Shown: positions 31,161 to 49,755, counted from the first letter of the stretch. The stretch: 64,000 nucleotides of DNA from Anaerolineales bacterium (GCA_029210945.1 JARGGH010000004.1:50454-114453); one strand, 5' to 3'. Notes: generated from the letters alone by a model not told the origin. Numbers and translations: made by a program.

Positions 31161-31202
31161 GGCTTTCTCCTGCGTCGATTCCCAAGCGGTTGATTAATTG
31201 AA

Positions 31203-31235
31203 CGCACAAAATCGCCCCGCATCGGATACGGGGCG
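31203..31235 (-). terminator. hairpin terminator downstream of the roadblock/LC7 gene
   Basis: cgccccg-catcggata-cggggcg; the minus-strand read is followed by ATTTTGTG. Confidence 0.4.
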
Positions 31236-31244
31236 ACGGGTGTT

Positions 31245-31634
31245 TTATGCCGAAAAACGCATCTTCAATGTCTTCAGGATCTCCGGGACCTTCTCGCTGA
31301 GCGGACCGAAGATCTGGTGTGTTTGAACATGGGGTTTGAAGCCGAGCGAGAGGGTGCGTTCGCTATCCATCGCGACGGCGATCAACTGGCGTTTCGAACC
31401 GGCCACCGCCGCAAATCGAAAACTGCCGCCGTCTACCTCCCCCGTCACGCGCTGTGCGGCGGCCGTTGTCGTCACGGTCATCGCCGCGATCTGATCGGTT
31501 GAGATCACGGGTGCGTCAGGTACGCAGGCGATCAGGAGGCCATCATTGTCGATGATCGCCGCCCAGATCGGTTCCGGCAAATCCACGGCCAATCCAGAAA
31601 GCAGTCTCTCCAGTTCAGATTCTCGCGTGACCAT
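31245..31634 (-). CDS. roadblock/LC7 (MglB-like) domain protein
   Basis: 129-aa alpha-beta sandwich pattern (AIIDNDGLLIACV...). Confidence 0.6.
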   Translation of the reverse strand: MVTRESELERLLSGLAVDLPEPIWAAIIDNDGLLIACVPDAPVISTDQIAAMTVTTTAAAQRVTGEVDGGSFRFAAVAGSKRQLIAVAMDSERTLSLGFKPHVQTHQIFGPLSEKVPEILKTLKMRFSA

Positions 31635-31809
31635 TGAGTGACCTCATTCGCAGCTAGACCAGCATAGATCTAGCGTATCCTTCTTCCTCCGGCATGGCAA
31701 GGGCCGCTTCGTCGATCACGGCGGACCGGAGCGATGGGCGGAGGTTTCTGGATGTGCGCGCAGCGATCACGTTTGGCTGTGTTTCTTTCTTGGGATACAA
31801 TCGCGGGCG

Positions 31810-33339: not shown

Positions 33340-33343
33340 CCTG

Positions 33344-35790: not shown

Positions 35791-35841
35791 GTCACGATCC
35801 ACAGCCTTCGGCCTGACGTCAATCCGTCCTGGTCAGAGCAA

Positions 35842-36783
35842 GTGACAGGATCAAGCCTCATGCCGTCAAATAAGATCCGCTGGCTTGATCTGCACCCCCG
35901 GGTCGCCGGAGCCTTGCACGCCGAAGAACCGGTGGTCGCGCTGGAATCGACCGTCCTTACCCATGGCCTGCCCCGACCGATCAACCTCGAGTTGGCCCGG
36001 CGCGCCGAGGCTGAAATCCGGGCCGAACAGGCCGTCCCGGCGACCGTCGCCATTTACAAGGGTTCCGTGAAAGTCGGGTTGAACGATGTCGAACTCGAAC
36101 GCCTGGCATTAGAACCCGATGCGATCAAGGTCAGCCGGCGCGATCTGGCCGTCGCGACCACCGGCGTGCGCAGCGGAGGCACGACCGTCGCGGCGACGAT
36201 GTACATCGCGGGCGCGGCCGGGATCCGGGTCTTTGCCACCGGCGGGATTGGCGGCGTGCATCGCGGCGATAGCGGGGACATCTCTGCCGACCTGCCGGAA
36301 CTGCGTCAGACTCCGGTGGCGGTTGTGTGCGCTGGAGCGAAATCGATCCTCGATCTTCCGCGCACGCTGGAATGGCTGGAGACCGGCGGCATCCCGGTGC
36401 TTGGCTGGCAAACGGACACCTTTCCGGCGTTCTTCTCGCGCAGCAGCGGGCTGCCCATCCACACGCGCGTGGACACCGTCGGCGAAGCGGCTGCGATTAT
36501 CCTGCGGCACTGGCAGCTCGGGCTGCAATCGGGTGTTCTGCTCTGCGTGCCCTGCCCGGAGGAGACGTCCATCCCATTTAAAGAAGCGGAAGCGGCCATT
36601 CAAGAGGCGGAAGAAGAGGCGCAGCGGAGGTCCATCCGGGGAAAGACGCTGACGCCGTTTCTGCTGGATTACCTCGCCGAGAAGACAGGAGGGGCCACCC
36701 TGCAGTCCAATCTGGCACTGCTGCGGCAGAATGCCCGCATCGCCGCGCACCTGGCGAACGCGATCAAAATCCAGAGCCGATAA
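35842..36783 (+). CDS. psuG: pseudouridine-5'-phosphate glycosidase (IndA family)
   Basis: Conserved ALESTVLTHGLP...GGTTVAATM...FATGGIGGVHRG motifs. Confidence 0.85.
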   Translation: MTGSSLMPSNKIRWLDLHPRVAGALHAEEPVVALESTVLTHGLPRPINLELARRAEAEIRAEQAVPATVAIYKGSVKVGLNDVELERLALEPDAIKVSRRDLAVATTGVRSGGTTVAATMYIAGAAGIRVFATGGIGGVHRGDSGDISADLPELRQTPVAVVCAGAKSILDLPRTLEWLETGGIPVLGWQTDTFPAFFSRSSGLPIHTRVDTVGEAAAIILRHWQLGLQSGVLLCVPCPEETSIPFKEAEAAIQEAEEEAQRRSIRGKTLTPFLLDYLAEKTGGATLQSNLALLRQNARIAAHLANAIKIQSR

Positions 36784-36942
36784 GTGCAAGCACAGGAATC
36801 AGAACCCCGTTCATAGTCATGTAGTGATTTTCCTGTCGTAGGAGATACCGGCAGCTTACCTCTTATTTCAACCTTCAAAGTCGTTCATTTGAGTCGAATT
36901 TACGGCAGACATATAGACGGGGTCTGCAGGGGAATTTGACAC

Positions 36943-36973
36943 TTGACAAGTGTACGCCATTGGCGTACACTTG
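36943..36973 (+). promoter_or_regulatory. TA-operon promoter (TTGACA-17-TACACT) overlapped by a 27-bp perfect palindrome (13-bp arms); probable HigA-type operator
   Basis: The palindrome caagtgtacgcca-t-tggcgtacacttg at 36947-36973. -35 TTGACA at 36943-36948 and -10 at 36966-36971. Confidence 0.55.
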
Positions 36974-37003
36974 TGTGGAGTAGAGAGAATCGGGCATCCC
37001 GCC

Positions 37004-37321
37004 GTGGTCATAATCGAGACATCCATTTTCACCAGGCAAGTGGAGAACTTATTACAGGACGAGGAGTATCGCAAGCTTCAAGCGGCATTGATAGGTAAGC
37101 CGGACCTTGGCCAGCTTATTAAGGGCAGCGGCGGACTACGGAAAGTGCGATGGGGATTACCCGGACGAGGAAAGAGCGGAGGAGTGAGAGTAATCTACTA
37201 CTGGGTAGTCGACGAGGACCAACTGTTCATGCTATTTATGTACATAAAATCTGAACAAGAAGACTTAGCTCCGGCGCAGATGAAGGTTTTGAAGAAGATC
37301 GTAAAGGATGAGTTTAAATGA
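37004..37321 (+). CDS. higB: type II toxin, HigB-2-like (RelE/ParE superfamily, PF09907-like)
   Basis: ...GGLRKVRWGLPGRGKSGGVRVIYYWVVDEDQLFMLFMYIKSEQEDL matches the HigB-2 pattern. The start is set to the GTG at 37004 because the track ORF (36950) would begin inside the promoter/operator. Confidence 0.65.
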   Translation: MVIIETSIFTRQVENLLQDEEYRKLQAALIGKPDLGQLIKGSGGLRKVRWGLPGRGKSGGVRVIYYWVVDEDQLFMLFMYIKSEQEDLAPAQMKVLKKIVKDEFK

Positions 37322-37635
37322 AGGTTGAAATGTTTGACGAACTTGTGGAAAGCATTCGAGAGGCTGGGGCGATTCGCCGAGGGCAACGATCTCCATCTCG
37401 AGCGTTTGTTGTCGACAGTGCTAGCATTCGGCAAATTCGTTCAATTTACGACCTAACGCAGAAGCAGTTTGCGGCCATGTTAGGGATTAGTGTTGGAACT
37501 CTTCGCAATTGGGAACAAGGCCGCCGCACTCCAGAGGGACCCGCTCGAGTTCTTCTACAGATTGCAGCGAGCCACCCCGAAGCAATTTTGGATGTTGTCC
37601 GACCCATCAAAGAAGGCGAATCAGTCCCTGGTTAG
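37318..37635 (+). CDS. higA: HTH (XRE-family) antitoxin, HigA-2-like
   Basis: HTH LTQKQFAAMLGISVGTLRNWEQGRRTP. It overlaps the toxin stop by 4 nt. Confidence 0.65.
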   Translation: MKVEMFDELVESIREAGAIRRGQRSPSRAFVVDSASIRQIRSIYDLTQKQFAAMLGISVGTLRNWEQGRRTPEGPARVLLQIAASHPEAILDVVRPIKEGESVPG

Positions 37636-38097
37636 ATTCGAGCAACACGGATAAATACGTTAAGTAGGGTTACCTAAGCATTGCTAAAGCGGAATTACCA
37701 AGTTGAAGGATCCAAGAATGAGCCTGGTGGTTAGACGCCAGGCTTAATCATTAATAAGCAGAAGTGGTGTCACTTTGTATGAAAACACTAAGTAGAGAAA
37801 ATCAATCCTATCTCAAACAACAATTTCCGTGTTAAGTTGCCGTTGGTCATTGATTGGTACGATAGAGGCAGCCAAGGATGCTTCGGATCCATAAACTTGA
37901 AATAGCAATACACAGGGCAGGTAGCAGTATTACTCTCTAGCTCAATGCTGGCAAGGGGTTTGACCGATTAACCGACAGAACCAGAAATGCGCTCATCCCG
38001 CGGATCGCCGCGGGTGTGACTCTAATGATCCACACCCTTGGCCATCAGTGACCGTGGATTCGAGGTTGCTACAGTGGCTTCGCTGCTGCGGGTCGAG

Positions 38098-40248
38098 CTA
38101 CCCTCCGCCGATCCGCACGCGCACATCCAATGCCCATGCGCCGCCATCGCCCGGCATCACCCGCAGCGGGTTGATTTCGAGTTCGTCAACCACCTCGAGC
38201 GTCTCCGCCAGCTGACTCATGCGCAGGATAGTCTCCACAACCGCCTCTCGATCGACGGCGGTTAATCCACGAAAACCACGCAGACGCCGGCCGGCCCATG
38301 TGCCTTCAATCAGCCGTTCCGCCTCTGAAGGCGCCAGCGGCGTGAGCTCGAAGGCTACATCTTGAAGCGCTTCAACCTCCACTCCCCCCGCCCCGAACAT
38401 CACCAGAGGTCCAAACTGCTCATCACGCACAAACCCGAGGATCACCTCCTGCCCTTCTGCGAGATAGGGCTGCAGGATGACCCCGTCCATGCTGAGCGAA
38501 GGCGCCGCGCCCGCAACTCTCTCGACGAGCCCTCGATACGCCGCCCGCACGGCCTCTTGCGACTGCAGGTTCAACGCCAACGCCCCCAGGTCGGACTTGT
38601 GGACGAGCTCTGTCGCCTCGACTTTCATCACGACCGGAAACCCGATCGCCAGGGCCGCCTCGCACGCCTCGTCCTCGCTTGTCGCGCGCCGCTGGTCCGG
38701 GACCGGAATCCCAAAACAGGCTGCTACCTCCGCCGACACGGAGGGAAGCAGAAAGCCGTGCTTGTCCACCCCGGCGCCGTCGAACGCGGCGCGCGCCTGC
38801 TCGACACGCACGTCATCAAATTCAACCGGATCCGACTGGACCTGTTCCAATTGGAGGGCGCGCTGGTGGAGCACCCTCAGTGCGGAGGCGGCGCGTTCGG
38901 GAAAGCGGTAATCGGGGATGCGCGCGCCCCGGAACAGGCGCGCCGCATGGGCAATTAGTTCCTCCCCCATCAGCGCCACGACGACCGGTTTCTGCACAGA
39001 TTGGATCAACGGGATCAGCGCCCCGGCCACTTCAGCGGCCGTCGTCACCGGAGGTGGCGGGAGGATCACGATCACACCGTCAACGTTCTCATCCTCTAGC
39101 AGCACCCGCAGGCAATCCGCATATTCACGCGGCCCGGCACCCGCCAGCATATCGATCGGATTTTTCAGGCTTGCCGCCTCGGGCAGCAGTCCAGCCAGCG
39201 CCTCCACGCTTGTGGGTGCCAACCGGGCCAGGCGCAGCCCGTTTGCAGCGAGCGCGTCGGCTGCGATCGCGCCTGGCCCACCCGCGTTGGTCAAGACCGC
39301 CATCTCGGGTCCGTCCGGCAGCGGGCACCAGGCGAGCGCCCTCGCCCAATCGAACATCTCCTCGCTGTGCCGGGCCCGGATCACACCTGCCTTGCGAAAT
39401 GCGGCGTCGAACGCATCGTCGCTGCCAGCCATCGCGCCGGTATGCGAGGCGACGGCGGCACGGCCTGCTTTAGATTGTCCGACCTTGATCGCCACGACCG
39501 GGATGCGCCCGGTCACTTTGCGCGCTTGCTCGATGAAGTTCCGGCCCTCCCCGATCCCTTCAAGATACATCGCCACGACGCGCGTGTTGGGATCGTCGGC
39601 CGTCGGCGGTAGCAGCTCACCCTCGTTTAGGTCCATCTGGTTGCCCAGGCTGACCAGCCGTGAGAGACCGAAACCCTGACCGCGCGCCCAATCGATCACC
39701 GCTTCGCAGATCGCACCCGAATGAGAAAGGAAAGCGATCTCACCCTGGATCGGACCGGGGAGCGGCAGGAATGACGTGTCGATCGGCAGATGGGTATCCA
39801 GATAGCCGATGCAGTTCGGTCCAAGCACCCGCACCCCAGCATTGCGCGCGGCCGCTAATGCCCGCTCTTCCAGCATACGCCCGTCCTCACCGGTTTCACG
39901 GAAACCCCCGGCGCCTACGATGGCAAAGTGGATCCCCCGCTTCCCGCAGTCGGTGAGCACTTCCGGAACTGCCGGTGCCGGGATCATGATCACGGCCAGA
40001 TCGACCGGATCGGGAACGGAAGCGAGATCATGGTGAAGCGGGCGATCGAACAAGCGCCCACCGCGCGGATTGACGAAATGAATGGCCCCCGGGTAACCAG
40101 AGACCACAAGATTCCTCGCCACACCATAACCGAGCTTGGTTGGGTTTAGAGACGCTCCGACGACGGCGACGCCCCGGGGAGAGAACAAACCTTCGAACAT
40201 CGACTGGCCTCCAGGACGGATCAAGTGCTGCGGTCGGATGGATGACAC
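38098..40248 (-). CDS. ADP-forming acetyl-CoA synthetase / acyl-CoA synthetase (NDP-forming), fused alpha-beta
   Basis: CoA-binding N-domain (VAVVGASLNPTKLGY), succinyl-CoA-synthetase-like ligase domain and a C-terminal ATP-grasp (FPVVMKVEATELVHKSDLGA). Confidence 0.8.
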   Translation of the reverse strand: MSSIRPQHLIRPGGQSMFEGLFSPRGVAVVGASLNPTKLGYGVARNLVVSGYPGAIHFVNPRGGRLFDRPLHHDLASVPDPVDLAVIMIPAPAVPEVLTDCGKRGIHFAIVGAGGFRETGEDGRMLEERALAAARNAGVRVLGPNCIGYLDTHLPIDTSFLPLPGPIQGEIAFLSHSGAICEAVIDWARGQGFGLSRLVSLGNQMDLNEGELLPPTADDPNTRVVAMYLEGIGEGRNFIEQARKVTGRIPVVAIKVGQSKAGRAAVASHTGAMAGSDDAFDAAFRKAGVIRARHSEEMFDWARALAWCPLPDGPEMAVLTNAGGPGAIAADALAANGLRLARLAPTSVEALAGLLPEAASLKNPIDMLAGAGPREYADCLRVLLEDENVDGVIVILPPPPVTTAAEVAGALIPLIQSVQKPVVVALMGEELIAHAARLFRGARIPDYRFPERAASALRVLHQRALQLEQVQSDPVEFDDVRVEQARAAFDGAGVDKHGFLLPSVSAEVAACFGIPVPDQRRATSEDEACEAALAIGFPVVMKVEATELVHKSDLGALALNLQSQEAVRAAYRGLVERVAGAAPSLSMDGVILQPYLAEGQEVILGFVRDEQFGPLVMFGAGGVEVEALQDVAFELTPLAPSEAERLIEGTWAGRRLRGFRGLTAVDREAVVETILRMSQLAETLEVVDELEINPLRVMPGDGGAWALDVRVRIGGG

Positions 40249-40344
40249 CAGAGACCTAAATTACAGTAGCATGGGGTGCTTAGCAAGTTTGAGACCATGT
40301 TATAATCCCGTCAACTTCGGACCGGTGAGTTGGAGGCTTGGCGG

Positions 40345-40872
40345 ATGGTAGAAGTTGAAATAGACAGTATCCGCGTCAGTTTAATGTCGCAGCAGCGCAT
40401 CGTGATACTACGAGAGCGCGATTCCGAGCGCTTCCTCCCGATCTGGATCGGCCCTTATGAGGCTGAAGCGATCACGCTCAGTCTGAACGAAGTTGAGGTT
40501 GTCCGCCCGCTAACCCACGACCTTCTGCGCAACATCATCAACGACCTCGGCGCACAGGTCATGCGCGTTAACATCACCGAACTGCGCGATGATGTCTTCT
40601 ACGCCCGCATCATCCTGCAGGTTGACGGTCAGGAAATGGCTGTAGATTCACGCCCCTCCGACGCCCTGGCGCTGGCTGTACGTGTGCATGTTCCCGTGTT
40701 TGTCGACGAAGAGGTGATGGAAACCGCTTCGACTGAACCTGAAGAGGATATCGAGGCGGAGCTGCCCGAAGGCGAAGAATCCGAAGAGCGCCTGGAGGTG
40801 TTCAAGGATTTTGTCGAATCGCTTGACCTCGGCAAACTCGACGATGAGGAAGGCACCGAGGACGAGGAATAG
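40345..40872 (+). CDS. bifunctional nuclease (BFN/DUF151) family protein with acidic C-terminal tail
   Basis: [13 protein letters not shown]...RPLTHDL...[12 protein letters not shown]. ggagg RBS 8 nt upstream. Confidence 0.65.
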
Positions 40873-41025: not shown

Positions 41026-42414
41026 ATGAGCGATTTCCCATTTTCACCCGCCGATAACCCTCCTTCAGGCGACGGTCGTTCGACTCGGGAGCTGCCCCAC
41101 GATCGCCAGGCGGAAGAGGCTGTGCTCGGCGCCATCATGGTCAACCCCGAAGTCTATTATGATGTCGCCCACTTCCTGACCGCGGAGGATTTCTTCCTGC
41201 ACCGCAACCGCTGGGTATGGGAGGCGTTCGCCGCACTGCACGACCAGCGCCTACCGGTGGACATTCTGACTGTCTCGGAAGAACTTGAGCGCCAGAGCCG
41301 GCTCGACGAAGTCGGCGGTCCGGCTTACCTCACGTCGCTGATCAATAACGTGCCCTCCTCACTGCACGCCGAGGCCTACGCACGCACGGTGGAGGAGACC
41401 GCCACCCGGCGCCGCTTGCTATCGGCGGCGAACACAATCGCCCGGCTCGCTTACCAGACCAGTTCGACGATCGAAGAGGTCGTCAACGACTCCGAGAAAT
41501 CGATTTTCGGCGTGAGCGAGCACCGCCTGACCCACCAACTGCAGCCGATCAAACATGTTCTCTCGGAATATTATGACCGCATCGATTATCTCGCCCGGCA
41601 CCGGGATGAGACGATTGGCGTTCCTACCGGGTTCATCGATCTGGACCGGCTGCTGGGCGGGCTGCAATCGAGCGATCTGCTGATCATCGCCGGCCGGCCC
41701 GGTCAGGGCAAATCAGGCTTCTGCCTTTCTGTGGCGAAGAACGCCAGCCAGATCCACAAGAAGCACGTGGCGCTCTTCTCGCTCGAGATGTCCAACGAAC
41801 AGCTCGTACAGCGCCTCGTCGCACAGGAAACCGGAATTGACTCACAGCGCCTGCGCCTGGCAAACCTGCAGGATGACGAATGGCCAATCTTCACGCAGGC
41901 GGTCAGCTCGATGAGCGAGACCCATATTTACCTCGACGACACGCCGGCGATCACGCCGCTGCAGCTGCGCACCAAATGCCGCCGGCTGCACATGGAGGTC
42001 GGGCTCGATTTGATCGTGATCGACTACCTGCAGCTCATGACGGGCGACAGCCGCATCGACAACCGCGTCCAGGAGGTCTCCTACATCTCCCGCAACCTGA
42101 AAGCGCTGGCGCGCGAACTGAACGTCCCGGTGCTCGCCGCTGCACAACTCTCACGCGCTGTCGAATCCCGCCGGCCGCCGCGACCGATCCTCTCCGACTT
42201 GCGCGAATCGGGCAGCCTCGAGCAGGATGCCGACGTGGTGCTGTTCATCTACCGCCCGGACCAGTACGAAGACGACACGCTCAAGCAGAACATCGCCGAG
42301 ATCATCGTCGCCAAACACCGCAATGGCCCGGTGGGCGTCGTCGAACTGGTCTTCCGCCAATCGCTGGCGAAGTTCGAGAACGCCGCAACCCGCATGGCGG
42401 TCGAGCATGAGTAA
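41026..42414 (+). CDS. dnaB: replicative DNA helicase DnaB
   Basis: N-terminal domain (AEEAVLGAIM), Walker A GRPGQGKS, and H2/H3/H4 motifs (SLEMS...IDYLQLM...AAAQLSR). Confidence 0.9.
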   Translation: MSDFPFSPADNPPSGDGRSTRELPHDRQAEEAVLGAIMVNPEVYYDVAHFLTAEDFFLHRNRWVWEAFAALHDQRLPVDILTVSEELERQSRLDEVGGPAYLTSLINNVPSSLHAEAYARTVEETATRRRLLSAANTIARLAYQTSSTIEEVVNDSEKSIFGVSEHRLTHQLQPIKHVLSEYYDRIDYLARHRDETIGVPTGFIDLDRLLGGLQSSDLLIIAGRPGQGKSGFCLSVAKNASQIHKKHVALFSLEMSNEQLVQRLVAQETGIDSQRLRLANLQDDEWPIFTQAVSSMSETHIYLDDTPAITPLQLRTKCRRLHMEVGLDLIVIDYLQLMTGDSRIDNRVQEVSYISRNLKALARELNVPVLAAAQLSRAVESRRPPRPILSDLRESGSLEQDADVVLFIYRPDQYEDDTLKQNIAEIIVAKHRNGPVGVVELVFRQSLAKFENAATRMAVEHE

Positions 42415-42451
42415 ATGGCATTATGGCTGCTGAAGCGATCTTCGGACGCCT

Positions 42452-43165
42452 ATGAAGGATCATCCTGGTTTCTCCGGTTTTCCTGCAGGCCGTCTGCCGC
42501 TGACGCCGGTCCCGAACCTTTTCTTCAGCGAGCTGCTCCCGCAGATCGACCATCTCGGCGAGCTGAAAATCACGCTCTACGCCTTCTGGGCCCTGGCCAA
42601 GAAACCGCCCGAGCAGCGCTATCTGACGCTGGAGGGCCTGCAGGCAGACGAGCGCCTGCTGCAGGCATTCGCAGATCCTGATCTCAGCGAGATTGAAGGT
42701 CTGCAGGAAGCGCTTGAACGCGCCGTGGCACGCGGCACGTTGCTCAAAGTCACGGTTGACGATCAAGAGGGACAGGCATATTTCTTCATCAACTCAGCCA
42801 GGGGACGGGCTGCGGTCGAAGGGATCGTGTCCGGAGAGTGGCATCCGAGCGGTGATCCAGAATCGCCGATCTCCCTGGCACATGAGCGCCCCAACATCTA
42901 TACTCTCTACGAGCAAAATATCGGCCCGCTGACGCCGATGATCGCCGAAGAGCTGCGGGATGCAGAGAAGGAATACCCGCCAGACTGGATCGAGGACAGC
43001 ATCCGCATCGCGGTTGAGAACAACGTCAGGAAATGGCGCTACGTCGAGGCCATCCTGGAAGATTGGAAGAGTCGAGGCAGGGATGAGCGAGAAGATCGAG
43101 GAGACACTGAAAAGGCTCGCCGCAGGTACATCCAGGGAAAATTCGCAGACCTCTGGGACTCCTGA
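42452..43165 (+). CDS. DnaD-domain replication initiation protein
   Basis: C-terminal DnaD-like region (IAEELRDAEKEYPPDWIEDSIRIAVENNVRKWRYVEAILEDW). Located between dnaB and the loader gene. Confidence 0.6.
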   Translation: MKDHPGFSGFPAGRLPLTPVPNLFFSELLPQIDHLGELKITLYAFWALAKKPPEQRYLTLEGLQADERLLQAFADPDLSEIEGLQEALERAVARGTLLKVTVDDQEGQAYFFINSARGRAAVEGIVSGEWHPSGDPESPISLAHERPNIYTLYEQNIGPLTPMIAEELRDAEKEYPPDWIEDSIRIAVENNVRKWRYVEAILEDWKSRGRDEREDRGDTEKARRRYIQGKFADLWDS

Positions 43166-44483
43166 GGCCGGCCGTCAGAACAGCGACCGCGCTGGCGATC
43201 CAAACTGCCCGCACTGCCAGGGTACAGGTTACTTGCGCGACGATCTACCCCTTGGCCACCCGGAGTTCGGGCGCCTGCGGATCTGTGTGTGCCGTCAGCC
43301 CGAGCTGCATTCACGCATCCGCGACCGGCTCTTCAGCCTGAGCCAGCTCGACAAGCTTGAGCACCTCACATTTGAGTCGTTCAACCCGCGCGGGCGCGTC
43401 GGCCTGGGGACCCAACAGCAGGAATCGATCGCGAAAGCCTTCAACCTGGCGCAGTCTTTCGCTGAAGAGCGCAGCGGTTGGCTGCTGCTGCTCGGCGGCT
43501 ACGGCGTCGGGAAAACCCACCTGGCGGCGGCCGTTGCCAACCGGGCCGTCGATGAGGGGGTTCCAACGCTCTTTCTCACCGTTCCGGATTTGCTTGATCA
43601 GCTGCGTTTCGCATACGGTTCCGAGGATGAAACCTTCGAAGCGCGCTTTGAACGGGTCCGCACCGCGCCGCTCCTGATCATGGATGATTTCGGCACGCAA
43701 AGCGCCACGCCCTGGGCGCGCGAGAAGCTGTTCCAGATCCTTAACTACCGCTATGTGAATCACCTGCCGACTGTCGTGACGACGAACCTAGCCCTCGAGC
43801 AGATTGAAGGGCGCATGCGCTCGCGGCTTTCGGATCCGGATCTCGTCGCGCTGGTGACGATTAACGCCCCGGATTTTCGCCGGCCGACCGATGACAGCGG
43901 CCAGCACGAGCTCTCCACCCTGTCGCTGCATGCCAGCCAGACTTTTGGCACCTTCAGCCTGCGCAAAGACGAAGGTCTTTCCAGGACCGATCTCAAAACG
44001 CTCGACAATGCTTTTAAGGTCGCCCAGGGGTTCGCCGAGAAACCACAGGGTTGGCTGGTGCTGATGGGACCTTATGGCTCGGGCAAGACCCACCTGGCCT
44101 CCGCCATTGCGAACTACCGCGCCAGCCAGGGCTTCCCGGTGATGTTCGTCGTCGTGCCCGATATGCTCGACCACCTGCGGGCGACCTTCAACCCGAACAG
44201 CGAAACATCTTATGATCGCCGCTTCGACGAGATTCGTACGGCGCCGTTATTGATCCTCGACGACATGGGCTCGCAGGCCGCCAAACCCTGGGTGCAGGAA
44301 AAGCTTTACCAGCTCTACAACTACCGCTACAACGCCGAACTTCCCACGGTCATCACCACCGCGGACGCACTCGAAGAGATCGACCCGCGCCTGCGGGCAA
44401 GACTGATGGACCGCCGTCTGGTGCGCATCGCCCCGATCACCGTGCCTGCCTTCAGGGGAGGTCCAACCAAAACCCGGCGTTGA
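43083..44483 (+). CDS. helicase-loader ATPase with TWO tandem DnaC/DnaI-type AAA+ modules and an N-terminal Cys-cluster (Zn-ribbon-like)
   Basis: CPHCQGTGY...ICVC. Module 1 has GGYGVGKTHLA...LLIMDDFG; module 2 has GPYGSGKTHLA...LLILDDMG. The modules share roughly 45% identity by eye. The start is placed at ATG 43083 and overlaps the DnaD-like gene. Confidence 0.7.
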   Translation: MSEKIEETLKRLAAGTSRENSQTSGTPEAGRQNSDRAGDPNCPHCQGTGYLRDDLPLGHPEFGRLRICVCRQPELHSRIRDRLFSLSQLDKLEHLTFESFNPRGRVGLGTQQQESIAKAFNLAQSFAEERSGWLLLLGGYGVGKTHLAAAVANRAVDEGVPTLFLTVPDLLDQLRFAYGSEDETFEARFERVRTAPLLIMDDFGTQSATPWAREKLFQILNYRYVNHLPTVVTTNLALEQIEGRMRSRLSDPDLVALVTINAPDFRRPTDDSGQHELSTLSLHASQTFGTFSLRKDEGLSRTDLKTLDNAFKVAQGFAEKPQGWLVLMGPYGSGKTHLASAIANYRASQGFPVMFVVVPDMLDHLRATFNPNSETSYDRRFDEIRTAPLLILDDMGSQAAKPWVQEKLYQLYNYRYNAELPTVITTADALEEIDPRLRARLMDRRLVRIAPITVPAFRGGPTKTRR

Positions 44484-44509
44484 CCGGCGCGACCCCTCAA
44501 TGGTACAAT
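44480..44509 (+). promoter_or_regulatory. candidate promoter for tRNA-Glu (TTGACC-18-TGgTACAAT)
   Basis: Seen in sequence, ending ~10 nt before the tRNA 5' end. Confidence 0.45.
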
Positions 44510-44519
44510 CTCTCCCGCT

Positions 44520-44595
44520 GCCCCCATCGTCTAGGGGACCAGGACGTAGGCCTTTCAAGCCTAAAACGGGGGTTCGAATCCCCCTGGGGGCACCA
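44520..44595 (+). tRNA. tRNA-Glu (anticodon UUC), CCA encoded
   Basis: Cloverleaf folded by hand: acceptor GCCCCCA/UGGGGGC, D-stem GUC/GAC, anticodon stem UAGGC/GCCUA, loop CUUUCAA, T-arm GGGGG-UUCGAAU-CCCCC. It parallels E. coli tRNA-Glu. Confidence 0.85.
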
Positions 44596-45034: not shown

Positions 45035-46375
45035 ATGGAGCAGATGATGGTCAACCAGTTTAAAAACGAGCCCACATATAACTTGAAGGCGGTCGTCAAG
45101 GAGACCGGTATCAAGCCGGACACGCTGCGGGCCTGGGAACGCCGTTACGGCTTGCCGCAACCCGAGCGCACAGAAGGCGGCCACCGCATCTTCACCCAGC
45201 GGGACATCGAGACATTGAAATGGCTTTCAGCCCGCCAGGAGGAGGGGCTCAGCATCAGCCGCGCCGTCGACCTCTGGCACAAATTCGAGTCTGAAGGTCA
45301 GGATCCGCTGCTCTCCCTGGATTACGATACGGGTCCAGCGACAGAACCGCTTAAGGTTCTCTCGGGCAAGACGATCGATGAATCGCGTAAGGCGTGGGTC
45401 GCGGCCTGTTCCGAATTTGATGAAGACCTGGCCGAGCAAATTCTAAATCAAGCATTCGCCCAATTTTCTCCCGAGACTGTTGTGCTCGAAGTGTTGGTTA
45501 AAGGGCTGCATTCGATTGGAGAGGGCTGGTATCGAGGTGAGATCACCGTGCAGCAGGAGCATTTTGCCTCTTCACTGGCGCTGCGCCGGCTCGACGCGCT
45601 GATCGCCGCTTCGCCCACCCCGACCCGGAAAAGAACGGTCCTGATCGCCTGCCCTCCCGAAGACGAACACACCTTCAGCTCGCTCGTGCTCACCTACCTC
45701 CTCAGGCGTCGCGGACGCCGGGCGTTGTTCCTCGGCGCCAACGTGCCTTTCGCCCAATTCAGCGATGCGCTGGATCAAACGAAACCCGCGCTTGTGGTCA
45801 TGACTGCCCAGGATCTGCATACCGCCGCTCAACAGCTGCCATTTTCTGATCTGCTCGCCGAACGCGGAATCCCGTTTGCGTTTGGAGGGTTGGTCTTCAA
45901 CCTCAGGCCCGGCCTGCACGAACATATCCGGGGTCACCTGTTGGGGGAAACCCTGGCCGAGGTGCCGGATGCCGTGGAGCGGTTGATCGCCGCCGGCGCA
46001 AAGCCTCCTGAGGTCGAGCCCATCCCGGACGAATACCTCAACGCGATCGATGCCCTCAAAGTGAAAGAGAACGCGGTCATCGCCGGGCTATCACACTTCC
46101 TCCAGGATACCAGCATGGACAACTGTCATATGGCGCTGGCCAACCTCCATCTGACACGCGGTGTGCTCGCCGCCCTTAAACTCGGGGAACTCGACTACTT
46201 GAACCAGGATATCCTCTGGGCGCAGGGTTTGATCGAGAATTATCAGATCCCGCCGGAAAGCTTGATTGACTACCTCAGGACCTACGGCGAGGTCATTCAG
46301 AATACCCTTGGTGACGTCGGTCAGCCCATCACCGAAGCGATGCAATCGCTGATCGAGGAACTGAACGCAGGCTGA
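45035..46375 (+). CDS. MerR-family transcriptional regulator with cobalamin-binding domains (CarH/LitR-type photoreceptor) plus ~115-aa C-terminal extension
   Basis: MerR HTH (YNLKAVVKETGIKPDTLRAWERRYGL). Four-helix B12-binding_2 with the W-x9-EH motif (WYRGEITVQQEH). Rossmann B12 domain with ExH (PPEDEHTF). Confidence 0.8.
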   Translation: MEQMMVNQFKNEPTYNLKAVVKETGIKPDTLRAWERRYGLPQPERTEGGHRIFTQRDIETLKWLSARQEEGLSISRAVDLWHKFESEGQDPLLSLDYDTGPATEPLKVLSGKTIDESRKAWVAACSEFDEDLAEQILNQAFAQFSPETVVLEVLVKGLHSIGEGWYRGEITVQQEHFASSLALRRLDALIAASPTPTRKRTVLIACPPEDEHTFSSLVLTYLLRRRGRRALFLGANVPFAQFSDALDQTKPALVVMTAQDLHTAAQQLPFSDLLAERGIPFAFGGLVFNLRPGLHEHIRGHLLGETLAEVPDAVERLIAAGAKPPEVEPIPDEYLNAIDALKVKENAVIAGLSHFLQDTSMDNCHMALANLHLTRGVLAALKLGELDYLNQDILWAQGLIENYQIPPESLIDYLRTYGEVIQNTLGDVGQPITEAMQSLIEELNAG

Positions 46376-46405
46376 AACCGGCACGCTAATAAATGGGAGG
46401 TCGCG

Positions 46406-47347
46406 ATGATTTACATTACTGGTGGTTCAGGTTTCTTGGGCAGTCATATCGTGGAGCACCTCACCTCCAAGGGAAGCGAGGTGCGCGTCCTTGTTCGCGA
46501 CCGGGAACGAGCCCTGCAAGAAGGCCGACTGGCCGGCCTGGAGATCGATTGGGTCGATGGCGATGTCACCAGGCCCGAATCGCTGGCCGCTGGACTGGAA
46601 GGTGTCGATCAGATCATTCACACCGCCGCAATCGCCATCGAGAAGGGCCAAGCGACCTACGAAGAGGTCAACTTCCAGGGCACCGTCAACCTGGTGGATG
46701 CCGCAAAGGAAGCGGGCATCAAACGCTTTATCAACATTTCCCAACTGGGCGCCTCGCCCGAGTTGCCCTACCGCTTCCTGGCGTCAAAAGGGCGCGCCCA
46801 GGCCTATGTCGCCCGCTCCGGCCTGGACTGGACCGCATTCCGCCCGTCCGTGATCTGGGGTCCGGAAGATGAGTTTGCCAACACGTTCGCACGTCTCGTG
46901 CCAATCACGCCGATCATCTTCCCCGTTATCGGCGGCGAAGAGGCACGCTTTCAACCGGTATGGGTTGAGGACGTTGCCAGTGCCGCGATCGGCGCATTAG
47001 ACGACCCGGGCACATGGCAGAAAGAATTCGAACTTGGCGGTCCCGAGGTATTGACACTCGAGCAGATTGAACGCCGCGTGATGCAAGCTATCGATGCGAA
47101 GCGCTTGATGGTGCGCTTCCCAATGCCACTGCTCCGCTTTGCGGTCAAAATGATGGAACTGGCGCTGCCCAACCCACCGGTGACGAGCAGTCTGCTGGAA
47201 CTACTGCAGGTCGAAAATGTGACCAGCGACAACGCGTTGAACCGATTTGTCGAATCACCGCGTGCGTTTGATCCCGAATATCTCGCTGCCTACATGAAAG
47301 ACTTCACGGTCAGGGACACGCTGCGCAGCTTCATGGGTCGAGTTTGA
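46406..47347 (+). CDS. NAD(P)-binding NmrA/epimerase-like (NDUFA9-like) protein
   Basis: ITGGSGFLGSHIV Rossmann motif. Confidence 0.7.
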   Translation: MIYITGGSGFLGSHIVEHLTSKGSEVRVLVRDRERALQEGRLAGLEIDWVDGDVTRPESLAAGLEGVDQIIHTAAIAIEKGQATYEEVNFQGTVNLVDAAKEAGIKRFINISQLGASPELPYRFLASKGRAQAYVARSGLDWTAFRPSVIWGPEDEFANTFARLVPITPIIFPVIGGEEARFQPVWVEDVASAAIGALDDPGTWQKEFELGGPEVLTLEQIERRVMQAIDAKRLMVRFPMPLLRFAVKMMELALPNPPVTSSLLELLQVENVTSDNALNRFVESPRAFDPEYLAAYMKDFTVRDTLRSFMGRV

Positions 47348-47371
47348 ATTCAGTCCATAAAGCGATCCACC

Positions 47372-47833
47372 ATGGAACATCAAAGCCAATTCACGGTAAA
47401 TGCACCGGTCGAGGCAGTCAGGCAGTTTCACCAATCGGCCAACAGCCTGCAGGAGATCACGCCGCCTCTGATCCCGATGACGGCGGTGGATGCCCCGGAC
47501 CCATTAACCGAGGGGGCTCAAATAGCATTCACGCTCTGGTTCGGACCGCTGCCGGTGCGCTGGACAGCCCGGATCGAGGATCTCGATCCAAATGGTTTTG
47601 TGGATCGCCAGGCTTCAGGCCCTTTCGCTTCCTGGGTCCACCGGCACGTGTTCACCGCCCTCGATCGGAACAAGACTCGCGTCGATGATCACGTGACATA
47701 CAAACTGAAATCAAACCCATTCTGGTGGCTCGTGGGTGGAACGATGGCGATCGGGCTGCCGCTCCTGTTCCGCTACCGCGCTTATAAGACCCGACAAATC
47801 CTCACAGGAAACCTCGAAGGATATGGAAGCTAA
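47372..47833 (+). CDS. SRPBCC (Bet v1/START-like) domain protein with C-terminal TM helix
   Basis: 153 aa; polyketide_cyc2-like pattern; C-terminal FWWLVGGTMAIGLPLLF. Confidence 0.5.
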   Translation: MEHQSQFTVNAPVEAVRQFHQSANSLQEITPPLIPMTAVDAPDPLTEGAQIAFTLWFGPLPVRWTARIEDLDPNGFVDRQASGPFASWVHRHVFTALDRNKTRVDDHVTYKLKSNPFWWLVGGTMAIGLPLLFRYRAYKTRQILTGNLEGYGS

Positions 47834-48339
47834 TTGGGAGCGAACACTCTCAATGTCGTTTCCCGGGTCGCATTCATGGGTGTTCGATTCGCAGCAACCG
47901 CGACACAACCCGCTTGCTTCAGACCAGCCTGGCTTTAGTGGTCAAGGTTTTTACAATGGACATCCTTGCTGCGGCCGCGTCGCGTGTGCCTGCAAACCGG
48001 GATCAGACTGGCGACGTTCATACGCTTCACCCGCAGGGAATGGGGTTGGGTCGGGGGTTTCCCGCAGACAAACTTGTTCCGCACATAGGAACCGCGGCTG
48101 GCAGAGGATCTATGGATGGTCGGGGACAGCATTTTTCCCGGCCAATCGACAGGGGCGGTGGCACTGGGCGGGCTGCGCGTCGCACACACGATCCTGGCTC
48201 GCGATCCGGTTCTCCACGGCACCAATAGCGGCGCGCCCGTTGAAAAAGAGCTGGCGGAGTCAATCCCGGCCGCCCGCCAGGATGCCGGCGATCGAGTTTT
48301 GGATTTCTAACAGCGCGCTCCTGGAAGGATGAGGTCTGA

Positions 48340-49755
48340 ATGACGACGATCTGGTGGATACGGCGCGACCTGAGGCTGCACGACAACCAGGCACTCAGTG
48401 CCGCCCTGCAGGCCGGCACGCCGGTCGCTCCAGTCTTCATCCTCGACTCGAACCTGCTCGCTTCTGATTACGTTGGCGAAAAGCGTCTCGCATTCCTCTT
48501 CGCGTCACTGCGCGAGCTTGACGCAGATCTCGCTAGGCTCGGAAGCGGCTTGATCGTCCGGCGCGGAGATCCCAAACAGGTGCTGGGTGAACTGTTCACG
48601 GAATTGGACGCCGCTGGGATATACGCCGAAGAGGATTATTCGCCTTACGCTCGTCAACGCGATGCGGCGATCGAGCGATCGCTGCCATTGCACCTGCAGC
48701 AGGGGTTGACCATGTTTCCACCGGGCACGGTTGAGAAGAAATCCGGCGGTCCGTATACCGTCTACACGCCCTTCCGCAAATCATGGGAGGCGCTAGCACC
48801 ACCGGCGCGCAGCAGCCTGCTCCCGGCGCCCTCCCGCCTTGGAAGCGCCGCCGATATCAAGGCCGAATCCATCCCTGATACCCCGCAATGGCCCGAAGAG
48901 AGCGACTTTCCAGCCGGCGAACGGGCCGCACGCAACCGGCTGATGGAGTTCACCCACGGCGACGATGCGCCGGTCTATGCCTATAAGGACCTGCGCAATC
49001 AGGTCGCCCGGGACGGCACATCCATGCTCTCCCCCTACCTGCGTTTCGGCATGCTCTCGCTGCGCGAGGCCATCATTCACGCTCTCGAAGCGCGCCAGGC
49101 CGCACCGAATACGAAGGCTCGCCAGGGAGCCCAAACATGGCTTCAGGAATTGATCTGGCGCGATTTTTTTATCAACATTCTCTTCCACTTCCCGGATGTC
49201 ATGAAGCACAGCTTCAGGGAGGATTATCGCCTTATTCGCTGGCGAAATGACAATGAGGATTTCCGCGCCTGGACTGAAGGTCAGACCGGCCACCCGATCG
49301 TCGACGCTGCCATGCGGCAGCTGCTGGAAACAGGCTGGATGCACAACCGCGCCCGCATGGTCGTGGCTTCATTTCTGGTCAAGGACTTGCTGATCGACTG
49401 GCGCTGGGGTGAACGCTGGTTCATGCAGCAATTGATCGATGGCGACCCTGCATCAAACAACGGCGGGTGGCAGTGGAGCGCCGGAACCGGCACCGACGCG
49501 GCCCCTTACTTCCGCATATTCAACCCGGCCCTGCAAGGAAAGAAGCACGACCCGCAGGGCATCTACATCCGTCGCTGGGTCCCTGAATTGAGGGGGTTGC
49601 CGGACACATATCTCCACGCGCCATGGGAAACACCACCGGCCGTCCAAAAAGAATCAAGCGTGAAAATCGGCGTAGATTATCCAGAACCGATCGTTGAACA
49701 CAGCCTTGCACGTGAGCGCACGCTCGATGCATATAGCCGAGCCAGAAAAGGATAA
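48340..49755 (+). CDS. phr: deoxyribodipyrimidine (CPD) photolyase
   Basis: N-terminal photolyase alpha/beta domain (IWWIRRDLRLHDNQAL) and FAD-binding domain (TGHPIVDAAMRQL...WMHNRARM). Confidence 0.9.
   Translation: MTTIWWIRRDLRLHDNQALSAALQAGTPVAPVFILDSNLLASDYVGEKRLAFLFASLRELDADLARLGSGLIVRRGDPKQVLGELFTELDAAGIYAEEDYSPYARQRDAAIERSLPLHLQQGLTMFPPGTVEKKSGGPYTVYTPFRKSWEALAPPARSSLLPAPSRLGSAADIKAESIPDTPQWPEESDFPAGERAARNRLMEFTHGDDAPVYAYKDLRNQVARDGTSMLSPYLRFGMLSLREAIIHALEARQAAPNTKARQGAQTWLQELIWRDFFINILFHFPDVMKHSFREDYRLIRWRNDNEDFRAWTEGQTGHPIVDAAMRQLLETGWMHNRARMVVASFLVKDLLIDWRWGERWFMQQLIDGDPASNNGGWQWSAGTGTDAAPYFRIFNPALQGKKHDPQGIYIRRWVPELRGLPDTYLHAPWETPPAVQKESSVKIGVDYPEPIVEHSLARERTLDAYSRARKG

What the first reader, a model, noticed from the sequence alone, without database searches (positions are those of the whole stretch)
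41026..44483. dnaB followed by a DnaD-like gene and a single polypeptide with two tandem DnaC/DnaI AAA+ loader modules
The loader ORF contains two complete, diverged ATPase modules after an N-terminal CxxC...CxC cluster. Module 1 is GGYGVGKTHLA / LLIMDDFG / TVVTTN. Module 2 is GPYGSGKTHLA / LLILDDMG / TVITTA. Helicase loaders normally act as homo-oligomers of single-module subunits. An internally duplicated loader implies a built-in pseudo-dimer. The combination with a DnaD-domain protein is a Firmicute-style primosome arrangement in a genome that is otherwise not Firmicute-like. The start of the loader overlaps the DnaD-like gene by about 80 nt.
Basis: seen in the sequence. Interest (0 to 1): 0.55.

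Follow-up and report, generated by a model that had tools for sequence, protein, structure and literature searches.

The report
Two-module helicase loader of Anaerolineae
In this Anaerolineales (Chloroflexota) chromosome, the protein that should load the replicative DnaB helicase carries two fused DnaC/DnaI-type ATPase modules, one intact and one that lacks residues needed for hydrolysis, and hundreds of related species share this unreported design.

Summary
Three genes form an operon-like cluster: dnaB (41026-42414), a DnaD-family gene (42452-43165) and a loader gene (true start 43083, stop 44483, 466 aa).

The loader has a four-cysteine zinc ribbon followed by two DnaC/DnaI-type AAA+ modules. 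The modules are 49% identical in protein (E=7e-61) and match only in patches of DNA, so this is not an assembly artefact.

At least 587 hits in a scan of species-representative genomes encode relatives. The best 80 are all full-length two-module proteins, nearly all labelled Anaerolineales, Anaerolineaceae or Chloroflexota. In 75-80 of them the gene order BFN-dnaB-dnaD-loader is kept. Two-module forms also occur in Dehalococcoidia and SAR202. Rare relatives have three or four modules. The best 80 relatives on viral contigs are all single-module.

That is not quite right:
- Module 1 keeps every catalytic residue.
- Module 2 keeps Walker A, Walker B, the arginine finger and the ssDNA-contact residues. 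It has lost the sensor I asparagine (0 of 79 species) and usually the sensor II arginine.

The spacing between modules is fixed. The ~83-nt overlap with the DnaD gene is conserved.

Best reading: a covalent pseudo-dimer loader with one active and one hydrolysis-dead ATP site. A stoichiometry of three chains per DnaB hexamer is inferred only. I rate it a new variant of a known kind.

The parts
40330..40872 (+). Bifunctional-nuclease-domain (BFN) gene. It is the conserved upstream neighbour of dnaB.
   Evidence: PF02577 at 3.2e-41. Found upstream of dnaB in 75 of 80 related loci.
41026..42414 (+). dnaB, the replicative DNA helicase (462 aa).
   Evidence: TIGR00665 at 543 bits (cut-off 385) and NF004384 at 528 bits (cut-off 525). 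Pfam DnaB_C 8.9e-102 and DnaB N-terminal domain 1.2e-30.
42452..43165 (+). DnaD-family gene (237 aa). It has a predicted winged-helix-like N-terminal domain (aa 20-126, 42509-42829), a DDBH2 domain (aa 149-213, 42896-43090) with YxxxIxxxW at 43040-43066, and a conserved basic/aromatic C-terminal tail (43091-43162).
   Evidence: PF07261 3e-12 and TIGR01446 1.5e-12. PDB sequence hits 2zc2, 2i5u and 8ojj, all DnaD. Y197, I201 and W205 are invariant in 25 homologues. AF2 pLDDT 78. The only significant Foldseek hit is full-length DnaD, 9a5c_B, E=3.6e-4; the other hits are winged-helix regulators. A 100% identical protein is named 'DnaD domain protein [Anaerolineales bacterium]'.
43083..43165 (+). 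83-nt out-of-frame overlap between the end of the DnaD-like gene and the start of the loader gene. Both reading frames are conserved.
   Evidence: Sequence read directly. The overlap is 62-95 nt in the 55 of 80 related loci where a homologous ATG was found, and in most loci no alternative start lies before the zinc ribbon. The DnaD tail and the loader N-terminal helix are both conserved in alignments. An 86-nt overlap is also present in a Dehalococcoidia locus.
43083..44483 (+). Tandem helicase-loader gene (466 aa plus stop). Layout: N-terminal helix, low-complexity linker, Cys4 zinc ribbon, AAA+ module 1, short fixed linker, AAA+ module 2.
   Evidence: Closest solved relatives by sequence are DnaI 2w58 (4.7e-19), 5he8 and 4m4w; A. 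aeolicus DnaC 3ec2; E. coli DnaC 6qel; and IstB 5bq5. Foldseek single-module matches are 6qem_G (DnaC) and 2w58_A (DnaI).
43194..43298 (+). Zinc ribbon CPHC-x22-CVC. This is the presumed helicase-binding domain.
   Evidence: C42, C45, C68 and C70 are invariant in 79 of 79 species. By analogy, the zinc-binding N-terminal domain of DnaI mediates helicase binding (abstracts of PMC1636449 and PMC2673437).
43338..43880 (+). AAA+ module 1, with a full catalytic residue set: Walker A 43494-43517; Walker B 43671-43694; sensor I N235 at 43785-43787; Arg coupler/finger R244/R248 at 43812-43826; sensor II R266 at 43878-43880.
   Evidence: K144, D201, R244, R248 and R266 are present in 79 of 79 species; D202 and N235 in 78 of 79. 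The ssDNA-contact equivalents are also kept: R175, W211 and an aromatic at 178 (T209 is 78 of 79).
43881..43910 (+). Inter-module linker (RPTDDSGQHE). It is conserved in length and partly in sequence.
   Evidence: There are 69 residues from the module 1 sensor II Arg to the module 2 Walker A Lys in 69 of 79 species (range 63-71). P268 is kept in 77 of 79.
43911..44456 (+). AAA+ module 2, degenerate: Walker A 44067-44090; Walker B 44247-44270; sensor I position is Ala (A427, 44361-44363); Arg coupler/finger R436/R440 at 44388-44402; sensor II position R458 at 44454-44456, variable among relatives.
   Evidence: K335 and D393 in 79 of 79, D394 in 77 of 79, R440 in 77 of 79, R436 in 74 of 79. Position 427 is A35/S28/T6 and others, never Asn. 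Position 458 is Arg in only 30 of 79. The same pattern holds in 25 cluster representatives at 50% identity. Mean pairwise identity is 0.60, against 0.65 for module 1.
44520..44595 (+). tRNA-Glu(ttc) immediately downstream. It marks the end of the cluster.
   Evidence: ARAGORN. A promoter-like site lies at 44480-44509.

Best explanation
This is the chromosomal dnaB-dnaD-loader replication-initiation cluster of an Anaerolineales bacterium.

The loader is a DnaC/DnaI-type helicase loader whose AAA+ module was duplicated and fused long ago. One chain now carries one zinc-ribbon helicase-binding domain, one fully catalytic AAA+ module (M1) and one degenerate module (M2).

M2 still has what it needs to bind ATP (Walker A and B), to touch ssDNA, and to donate an arginine finger to a neighbouring ATP site. 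It has lost the sensor I Asn and usually the sensor II Arg, which are needed to hydrolyse its own ATP.

Proposed mechanism (inferred, not shown):
- The chain is a covalent head-to-tail pseudo-dimer.
- Several chains assemble on the DnaB ring into the usual ATP-dependent loader spiral. Three chains per hexamer is the simplest arithmetic.
- Hydrolysing M1 sites, each completed by an M2 arginine finger, then alternate with non-hydrolysing M2 sites that act as ATP-dependent glue.
- The ring is opened and ssDNA is admitted, as in E. coli DnaB-DnaC.
- The DnaD-like protein is made in a fixed ratio with the loader through the conserved overlap. It probably bridges the origin or DnaA to the loader, as DDBH proteins do in Bacillus.
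For: Shown here:
- Two modules at 49% identity, E=7e-61, with diverged DNA.
- Family assignment to DnaC/DnaI/IstB AAA+.
- The Arg coupler plus Arg finger, spaced four residues apart, is present in both modules. PMC8213410 reports the coupler as nearly invariant in DnaC/DnaI and not clearly present in IstB.
- The architecture is conserved: at least 587 genome hits, and the best 80 are all full-length two-module proteins.
- The gene order BFN-dnaB-dnaD-loader is kept in 75-80 of 80 loci, among housekeeping genes, with no transposase among the genes scanned.
- Residue asymmetry is consistent: M1 keeps all six catalytic positions in 78-79 of 79 species. M2 has sensor I Asn in 0 of 79 and sensor II Arg in 30 of 79, but Walker A in 79 of 79 and Arg finger in 77 of 79. 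The pattern repeats in 25 diverse representatives.
- M2 is under constraint: 0.60 mean pairwise identity and 24 invariant positions.
- Inter-module spacing is fixed.
- M1 and M2 of the core family split into separate groups in 100 of 100 bootstraps, so the duplication predates that family.
- A Dehalococcoidia locus shows the same dnaB, DDBH2 protein, tandem loader order with an 86-nt overlap.

From the literature:
- N203A, R220D and R237D each abolish E. coli DnaC ATPase activity (PMC8213410).
- DnaI sits on the helicase as a trimer of dimers whose two members contact it differently (PMC3791466).
- Chloroflexi genomes carry a domesticated dna[CI] and no dciA (PMC5109545).
- The C-terminal tail of B. 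subtilis DnaB (a DDBH protein) binds the DnaI AAA+ domain (PMC13326638).
Against: - There is no biochemical evidence at all. ATP binding, hydrolysis, DnaB binding and stoichiometry are all inferred.
- The AF2 model has pTM 0.44 and low confidence in the linker, so the relative orientation of the modules is unknown. I could not inspect coordinates to see which arginine finger faces which site.
- One helicase-binding domain per two AAA+ modules would leave three of six DnaB sites unoccupied. Known DnaC and DnaI complexes are 6:6.
- Relatives with four modules (P0121) and three modules (P0123) exist. Four modules do not divide a hexamer evenly, so a strict three-chains-per-hexamer rule cannot hold for all relatives.
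- Some AAA+ proteins hydrolyse ATP with non-canonical sensor residues. Ser or Thr at position 427 might partly substitute.
- Only one 64-kb window was examined. A second loader or a DciA elsewhere in this genome is not excluded.
Confidence: 0.68

Rival explanations
1. Six chains bind the six DnaB sites through their six zinc-ribbon domains, as in canonical 6:6 complexes. Only the M1 modules form the loader spiral. M2 is a peripheral pseudo-ATPase, for example an adaptor for the DnaD-like protein or DnaA, an autoinhibitory partner of M1, or part of a longer 12-module filament on ssDNA.
For: Known DnaC and DnaI complexes use one helicase-binding domain per DnaB subunit. Variants with three and four modules fit an open-ended filament or accessory role better than a closed hexamer count. 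In B. subtilis the tail of a DDBH protein binds the AAA+ domain of DnaI, and here the DnaD-like tail is strongly conserved.
Against: M2 keeps the arginine finger (77 of 79), the arginine coupler (74 of 79) and the ssDNA-contact residues (R366, F369 and W403 in 79 of 79). These only make sense if M2 sits inside an AAA+ oligomer on ssDNA. The fixed short linker argues for tight packing next to M1.
Confidence: 0.22
2. The gene belongs to a mobile element. It would be an IstB-like transposition helper or a prophage replication module that happens to lie next to a phage-type dnaB.
For: The best Pfam hit is IstB_IS21. DnaC/DnaI loaders are thought to derive from phages (PMC5109545). Single-module relatives are common on viral contigs.
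Against: The four-gene order is conserved in 75-80 of 80 species, and the genes scanned on both sides (29559-40248 and 45035-49755) are housekeeping or ordinary chromosomal genes, with no transposase, integrase or phage structural gene among them. The dnaB passes the equivalog cut-offs for the replicative helicase. An Arg coupler is present, whereas PMC8213410 reports no clear coupler homologue in IstB, where the position holds a small residue. None of the best 80 viral relatives is tandem.
Confidence: 0.03
3. The tandem is an artefact: a mis-assembled repeat, or two adjacent loader genes fused by a sequencing or frame error.
For: None beyond the a priori possibility in metagenome-assembled sequence.
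Against: The DNA of the two modules matches only in 72-76% patches. The same uninterrupted ORF of about 466 aa is found on thousands of independent contigs from many sources. The junction sequence itself is conserved.
Confidence: 0.01

Closest known systems
DnaI of Bacillota (B. subtilis, G. kaustophilus, S. aureus; PDB 2w58, 4m4w, 5he8)
   Same: Both have a zinc-binding N-terminal domain followed by a DnaC/DnaI-type AAA+ module. DnaI is the best solved sequence relative (2w58, 4.7e-19). Both are partnered with a DDBH-family protein. In the crystal complex DnaI sits on the helicase as three asymmetric dimers.
   Different: DnaI has one AAA+ module per chain and binds 6:6. Here two modules are fused and the second has lost sensor I and sensor II. 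Homology of the zinc ribbon to the DnaI N-terminal domain was not shown. The helicase gene lies in the same cluster.
E. coli DnaC (PDB 6qel/6qem)
   Same: The AAA+ initiator-clade motifs match position by position, including the Arg coupler and Arg finger four residues apart and the ssDNA-contact tetrad. 6qem_G is a Foldseek match for a single module.
   Different: DnaC has a helical N-terminal domain without zinc and a single module, and all six sites are equivalent. The M2 state here mimics the engineered ATPase-dead N203A mutant.
Single-module Zn-ribbon DnaC-like proteins of Chloroflexota, Clostridia and phages (NCBIfam PRK08116 / PRK06835 type)
   Same: The zinc ribbon plus AAA+ layout and the best NCBIfam hits are shared. 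Relatives of about 280 aa exist in Dehalococcoidia and Chloroflexota (P0256) and on viral contigs. They are 47-49% identical to M2.
   Different: These proteins have one module with a complete motif set: sensor I Asn in 9 of 11 and sensor II Arg in 10 of 11.
IstB, the IS21 transposition helper (PDB 5bq5)
   Same: Same AAA+ subfamily. IstB_IS21 is the top Pfam model.
   Different: No IstA is found nearby and the Arg coupler is present. IstB also has a single module.
Heteromeric AAA+ loaders with degenerate sites (clamp loader/RFC, ORC-Cdc6) and type II tandem AAA+ proteins (p97, NSF)
   Same: The concept is shared: a loader ring or spiral in which only some ATP sites hydrolyse while others bind nucleotide structurally. 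p97-type chains also carry two AAA+ modules.
   Different: In RFC and ORC the different sites sit on separate paralogous subunits. In p97 and NSF the two modules stack as two rings and belong to the classic clade. Foldseek alignments to p97/Cdc48 have rmsd 15-18 A and TM about 0.25, so the similarity is only that both chains have two AAA+ folds.
DnaD and B. subtilis DnaB (DDBH family)
   Same: The partner gene has a DDBH2 domain with YxxxIxxxW, a basic C-terminal tail and a predicted winged-helix N-terminal domain.
   Different: Sequence similarity is confined to DDBH2. The N-terminal domain gives no Pfam hit. In the one Dehalococcoidia locus examined the homologue is a 109-aa DDBH2-only protein.

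Membership tests
DnaC/DnaI-type AAA+ helicase loader | AAA+ initiator-clade module with Walker A, Walker B, sensor I, Arg finger and sensor II | tested here: met
   Module 1 keeps all of them in 78-79 of 79 species. Profile hits PF01695, NF005992 and NF006505 (DnaI). Module 2 fails on sensor I (0 of 79 Asn) and sensor II (30 of 79 Arg).
DnaC/DnaI-type AAA+ helicase loader | Conserved Arg coupler four residues upstream of the Arg finger (nearly invariant in DnaC/DnaI; no clear homologue in IstB; PMC8213410) | tested here: met
   R244/R248 in 79 of 79. R436 in 74 of 79 and R440 in 77 of 79. Rule taken.
DnaC/DnaI-type AAA+ helicase loader | N-terminal helicase-binding domain | tested here: inconclusive
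   An invariant Cys4 zinc ribbon sits at the N-terminus, comparable to the zinc-binding domain of DnaI. No sequence or fold match to the DnaI N-terminal domain was obtained. AF2 confidence in this region is 50-63.
DnaC/DnaI-type AAA+ helicase loader | Genomic and functional association with the replicative helicase DnaB | tested here: met
   The gene lies two genes downstream of an equivalog-level dnaB. This order is kept in 79 of 80 loci and also in Dehalococcoidia.
DnaC/DnaI-type AAA+ helicase loader | One AAA+ module per polypeptide, acting as a homo-oligomer at 6:6 with DnaB | tested here: not met
   There are two modules per chain. Relatives have one, two, three or four. Stoichiometry cannot be tested here.
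DnaC/DnaI-type AAA+ helicase loader | ATP-dependent opening and loading of DnaB onto ssDNA | not testable with these tools
   This needs biochemistry.
IstB (IS21 helper ATPase) | Encoded next to an IstA transposase within an IS element | tested here: not met
   The scanned neighbours are BFN, dnaB, dnaD, tRNA-Glu and housekeeping genes. The order is conserved across species. NF038214 scores 150 bits, below its cut-off of 200.
DnaD / DDBH family (partner gene 42452-43165) | DDBH2 domain with the YxxxIxxxW motif | tested here: met
   PF07261 3e-12 and TIGR01446 1.5e-12. Y197, I201 and W205 are invariant. Motif definition from PMC2978336.
DnaD / DDBH family (partner gene 42452-43165) | N-terminal DDBH1 winged-helix oligomerisation domain | tested here: inconclusive
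   No Pfam hit. AF2 predicts a confident helix and beta-hairpin domain (pLDDT 85-95). The top Foldseek hit is full-length DnaD (9a5c_B, E=3.6e-4) but with low TM (0.28). The other hits are winged-helix regulators at E>0.02.
Type II (stacked double-ring) tandem AAA+ proteins (p97, NSF, ClpB) | Two classic-clade AAA+ modules with lid domains forming stacked D1 and D2 rings | tested here: not met
   Foldseek alignments to p97/Cdc48 have TM 0.23-0.29 and rmsd 12-18 A. Sequence hits are only weak partial matches within module 2 (query residues 318-401), at E about 1e-4. Both modules match DnaC/DnaI instead.

The most novel reading that the evidence does not exclude
Anaerolineae and some Dehalococcoidia load their replicative helicase with a natural covalent hetero-oligomer. 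Three two-module chains would form a six-module spiral on DnaB using only three helicase-binding domains, with catalytic M1 sites strictly alternating with non-hydrolysing, ATP-binding M2 sites. This would be a bacterial single-gene counterpart of the mixed active and degenerate sites of RFC or ORC-Cdc6. The number of modules per chain (one to four) would be evolvable.
Probability: 0.35. Interest if true: 0.72.

Novelty: new variant of a known kind. Interest (0 to 1): 0.57.

Why it matters
Bacterial helicase loading has been worked out on homo-oligomeric loaders (DnaC, DnaI), where all six ATP sites are chemically identical. Asymmetry in those systems has to be inferred or engineered.

A widespread natural loader that hard-wires two non-equivalent AAA+ modules into one chain gives a direct handle on several open questions:
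- How many loader ATP sites must hydrolyse?
- How many helicase-binding domains does a DnaB hexamer need?
- Is the 'trimer of dimers' seen in older DnaB-DnaC and DnaI structures a functional unit?

The finding also documents how the dna[CI] loader acquired by Chloroflexota diversified afterwards. It flags that automatic annotation ('ATP-binding protein', 'DnaC') hides the architecture.

Tried and rejected
1. The longest-ORF start at 42960 is rejected. Homologues begin at the ATG equivalent to 43083, and the upstream extension is an Arg/Ser/Thr-rich read of the DnaD frame.

2. Assembly artefact is rejected.

3. Mobile element or IstB is rejected on gene order and motifs.

4. AF2 of the whole loader from a 17-sequence alignment gave good modules but pTM 0.44 and a disordered linker. 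It says nothing reliable about how M1 and M2 pack. Model coordinates are not exposed, so I could not check which arginine finger faces which site.

5. Foldseek with the two-module model mostly returned p97/Cdc48 chains. These hits arise only because both proteins have two AAA+ folds (rmsd 15-18 A) and are uninformative.

6. A deep phylogeny of modules did not resolve. A neighbour-joining tree suggested two things. The window-type family would have a canonical M1 and a diverged M2. A Dehalococcoidia/SAR202 group would have a diverged M1 instead. Neither deep grouping had bootstrap support (0 of 100 for exact clades; my first distance formula also produced NaNs). One duplication versus several across the phylum is therefore unresolved. 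Only the separation of M1 from M2 within the core Anaerolineales family is solid (100 of 100).

7. Literature searches for a tandem or two-AAA+ helicase loader, or for Anaerolineae replication proteins, found nothing describing this architecture. The library is incomplete, so this is absence of evidence only.

Full report
**What is in the sequence**

Between 40330 and 44595 the + strand carries the following, in order:
- a bifunctional-nuclease-domain gene (40330-40872);
- dnaB (41026-42414; TIGR00665 at 543 bits, above its cut-off of 385);
- a 237-aa DnaD-domain gene (42452-43165; PF07261/TIGR01446 at aa 149-213);
- a long ORF ending at 44483 that matches IstB/DnaC/DnaI-type AAA+ profiles in two separate stretches;
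- a tRNA-Glu at 44520-44595.

No intrinsic-terminator-like site lies on the + strand between dnaB and the end of the loader.

The surrounding genes scanned are ordinary chromosomal genes: an acyl-CoA dehydrogenase, a PfkB kinase, an indigoidine-synthase-A-like protein, an ADP-forming acyl-CoA synthetase, a MerR/B12 regulator and a photolyase.

A protein 100% identical to the DnaD-like product is on record as 'DnaD domain protein [Anaerolineales bacterium]'. The window therefore comes from an Anaerolineales genome.

**The duplication is real**

The loader halves align at 49% identity over 182 residues (E=7e-61). Their DNA matches only in patches of 72-76% identity.

The start shared with homologues is ATG 43083 (MSEKIEE...), preceded by GAGG. 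It is not the longest-ORF start at 42960. The product is 466 aa.

**The overlap with the DnaD gene is conserved**

The start at 43083 overlaps the DnaD gene by 83 nt. The overlap is not a local accident:
- In 55 of 80 related loci a homologous ATG gives an overlap of 62-95 nt (mode 80-86).
- In most loci there is no ATG, GTG or TTG between the dnaD stop and the first cysteine codon of the zinc ribbon.
- Both products are conserved across the overlap.

**Distribution**

- A word-indexed search returned 7,999 relatives. The best 120 are all 388-481 aa, 62-98% identical, and named 'ATP-binding protein' or 'DnaC' from Anaerolineales or Chloroflexota.
The best 80 are all full-length two-module genes. 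They include Anaerolinea thermophila and MAGs labelled Leptolinea, Longilinea, Brevefilum and Thermanaerothrix.
- The order BFN-dnaB-dnaD-loader is kept in 75, 79, 80 and 80 of those 80 loci respectively.
- An exhaustive HMMER search of 50%-identity representatives found 698 clusters at E<=1e-30. Most of the best 150 have two modules, many with a recognisable zinc ribbon. One has three modules and one has four.
- Named members of distant clusters are Dehalococcoidia and SAR202.
- A Dehalococcoidia contig shows dnaB, then a 109-aa ORF, then a tandem loader with an 86-nt overlap. The small ORF is a DDBH2-only homologue of the DnaD-like protein (36% identity, E=3e-11).
- The four-module protein lies in the same kind of locus. 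Its modules are 39-66% identical in protein, so it is also not an artefact.
- Single-module relatives with a zinc ribbon exist in Dehalococcoidia and Chloroflexota.
- The best 80 relatives on viral contigs are all single-module, with matches of 786 nt or less.

**The two modules are not equivalent**

I used the E. coli DnaC residue map from Puri et al. 2021 (PMC8213410): Walker A K112, Walker B E170, sensor I N203, Arg coupler R216, Arg finger R220, sensor II R237, and the ssDNA tetrad K143/F146/S177/Y179. I scored 79 species for each position.

| Position | Module 1 | Module 2 |
|---|---|---|
| Walker A Lys | K144, 79/79 | K335, 79/79 |
| Walker B first Asp | D201, 79/79 | D393, 79/79 |
| Walker B second Asp | D202, 78/79 | D394, 77/79 |
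| Sensor I Asn | N235, 78/79 | position 427: Ala 35, Ser 28, Thr 6, others 10; Asn 0/79 |
| Arg coupler | R244, 79/79 | R436, 74/79 |
| Arg finger | R248, 79/79 | R440, 77/79 |
| Sensor II Arg | R266, 79/79 | position 458: Arg 30/79 |
| ssDNA contacts | R175, W211 and aromatic 178 kept; T209 78/79 | R366, F369 and W403, 79/79 |

The same asymmetry holds in 25 diverse cluster representatives. There, M2 has sensor I Asn in 1 of 25 and sensor II Arg in 8 of 25.

In E. coli DnaC, N203A or R237D alone abolishes ATPase activity. M2 is therefore predicted to bind ATP without hydrolysing it, while still able to activate a neighbouring site and to contact ssDNA.

M2 is not decaying. Its mean pairwise identity is 0.60, against 0.65 for M1, and it has 24 invariant positions.

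The distance from the M1 sensor II Arg to the M2 Walker A Lys is 69 residues in 69 of 79 species. This argues for a fixed geometry between the modules.

Within the core family, M1 sequences and M2 sequences separate in 100 of 100 bootstraps. The duplication therefore predates that radiation. Deeper relationships, including whether Dehalococcoidia duplicated independently, are unresolved.

**The partner protein**

- The DnaD-like protein has the DDBH2 signature YxxxIxxxW (Y197, I201, W205, invariant in 25 homologues).
- It has PDB sequence hits to DnaD C-terminal domains and to full-length B. subtilis DnaD.
- Its basic and aromatic tail is conserved.
- AF2 (pLDDT 78) predicts a confident N-terminal helix and beta-hairpin domain.
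- The only Foldseek hit below E=0.001 is full-length DnaD (9a5c_B). The next hits are winged-helix regulators.

I therefore read it as a two-domain DnaD-family protein. The N-terminal homology remains tentative.

**Mechanism**

What is shown is the anatomy and its conservation. What follows is inferred.
- The chain is a covalent pseudo-dimer of loader protomers.
- In any alternating assembly, each hydrolysis-competent M1 site is completed by an M2 arginine finger. Each M2 site, with bound but unhydrolysed ATP, is contacted by an M1 arginine finger.
- The simplest count is three chains per DnaB hexamer. This echoes the 'trimer of dimers' in which the two DnaI protomers of each dimer contact the helicase differently (PMC3791466).

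The main rival keeps six chains per hexamer and puts M2 in an accessory or extended-filament role. The three- and four-module relatives fit that rival somewhat better.

I could not test module packing.

**Comparison with what is known**

Brezellec et al. 2016 already record one domesticated dna[CI] and no dciA in Chloroflexi, including Anaerolinea thermophila (E8N2B4). The presence of a DnaC/DnaI-type loader in this phylum is therefore known.

Neither that paper nor any paper found in four full-text searches mentions a tandem loader.

The protein fails one defining trait of DnaC/DnaI, which is a single module acting as a homo-oligomer. It meets the others that could be tested. It is not IstB, and it is not a p97-type double-ring ATPase.

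**Verdict**

This is a new variant of a known kind. It is of real interest to people who study helicase loading, because it offers a natural asymmetric loader. It is not a new category of system.

Noticed in passing
window 43083-43165, and the equivalent region in L001-L080 and L081: There is a long out-of-frame overlap of about 83 nt between the DnaD-like gene and the loader gene, and both reading frames encode conserved peptide. It is kept in Anaerolineales and in a Dehalococcoidia locus (86 nt). This suggests obligatory translational coupling.
   Followed up: partly
L083:2433-7484: A relative with four AAA+ modules (827 aa; zinc ribbon, three canonical modules, then one degenerate terminal module; modules 39-66% identical). 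It follows a DnaB_2 (DnaD-like) gene and a 608-aa dnaB with an intein-splicing domain hit (PF14890). A three-module relative (P0123, 792 aa) also exists.
   Followed up: partly
L081:3349-6350 (Dehalococcoidia GCA_045562675.1): dnaB is followed by a 109-aa DDBH2-only protein with no N-terminal domain, and then by a tandem loader. In several representatives of this group both modules lack the sensor I Asn.
   Followed up: partly
window 40330-40872: A bifunctional-nuclease-domain (PF02577) gene with an acidic C-terminal tail lies directly upstream of dnaB in 75 of 80 related species. Its link to replication is unexplained.
   Followed up: no
window 44480-44595: A tRNA-Glu(ttc) lies 37 nt after the loader stop codon. 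A sigma-70-like promoter match (TTGACC, 18 nt, TACAAT) overlaps the loader stop.
   Followed up: no
window 45035-49755: A possible light-response cluster: a CarH-like MerR plus B12-binding regulator (45035-46375), an NmrA/NAD(P)-binding protein (46406-47347) and a DNA photolyase (48340-49755).
   Followed up: no
window 31810-34840: Two adjacent 509-aa ORFs (31810-33339 and 33311-34840) have no Pfam match at E<=1e-5.
   Followed up: no
window 36950-37321: A small ORF with a RelE-toxin-family hit (PF06296, 2.3e-7) lies between the indigoidine-synthase-A-like gene and the acyl-CoA synthetase gene.
   Followed up: no
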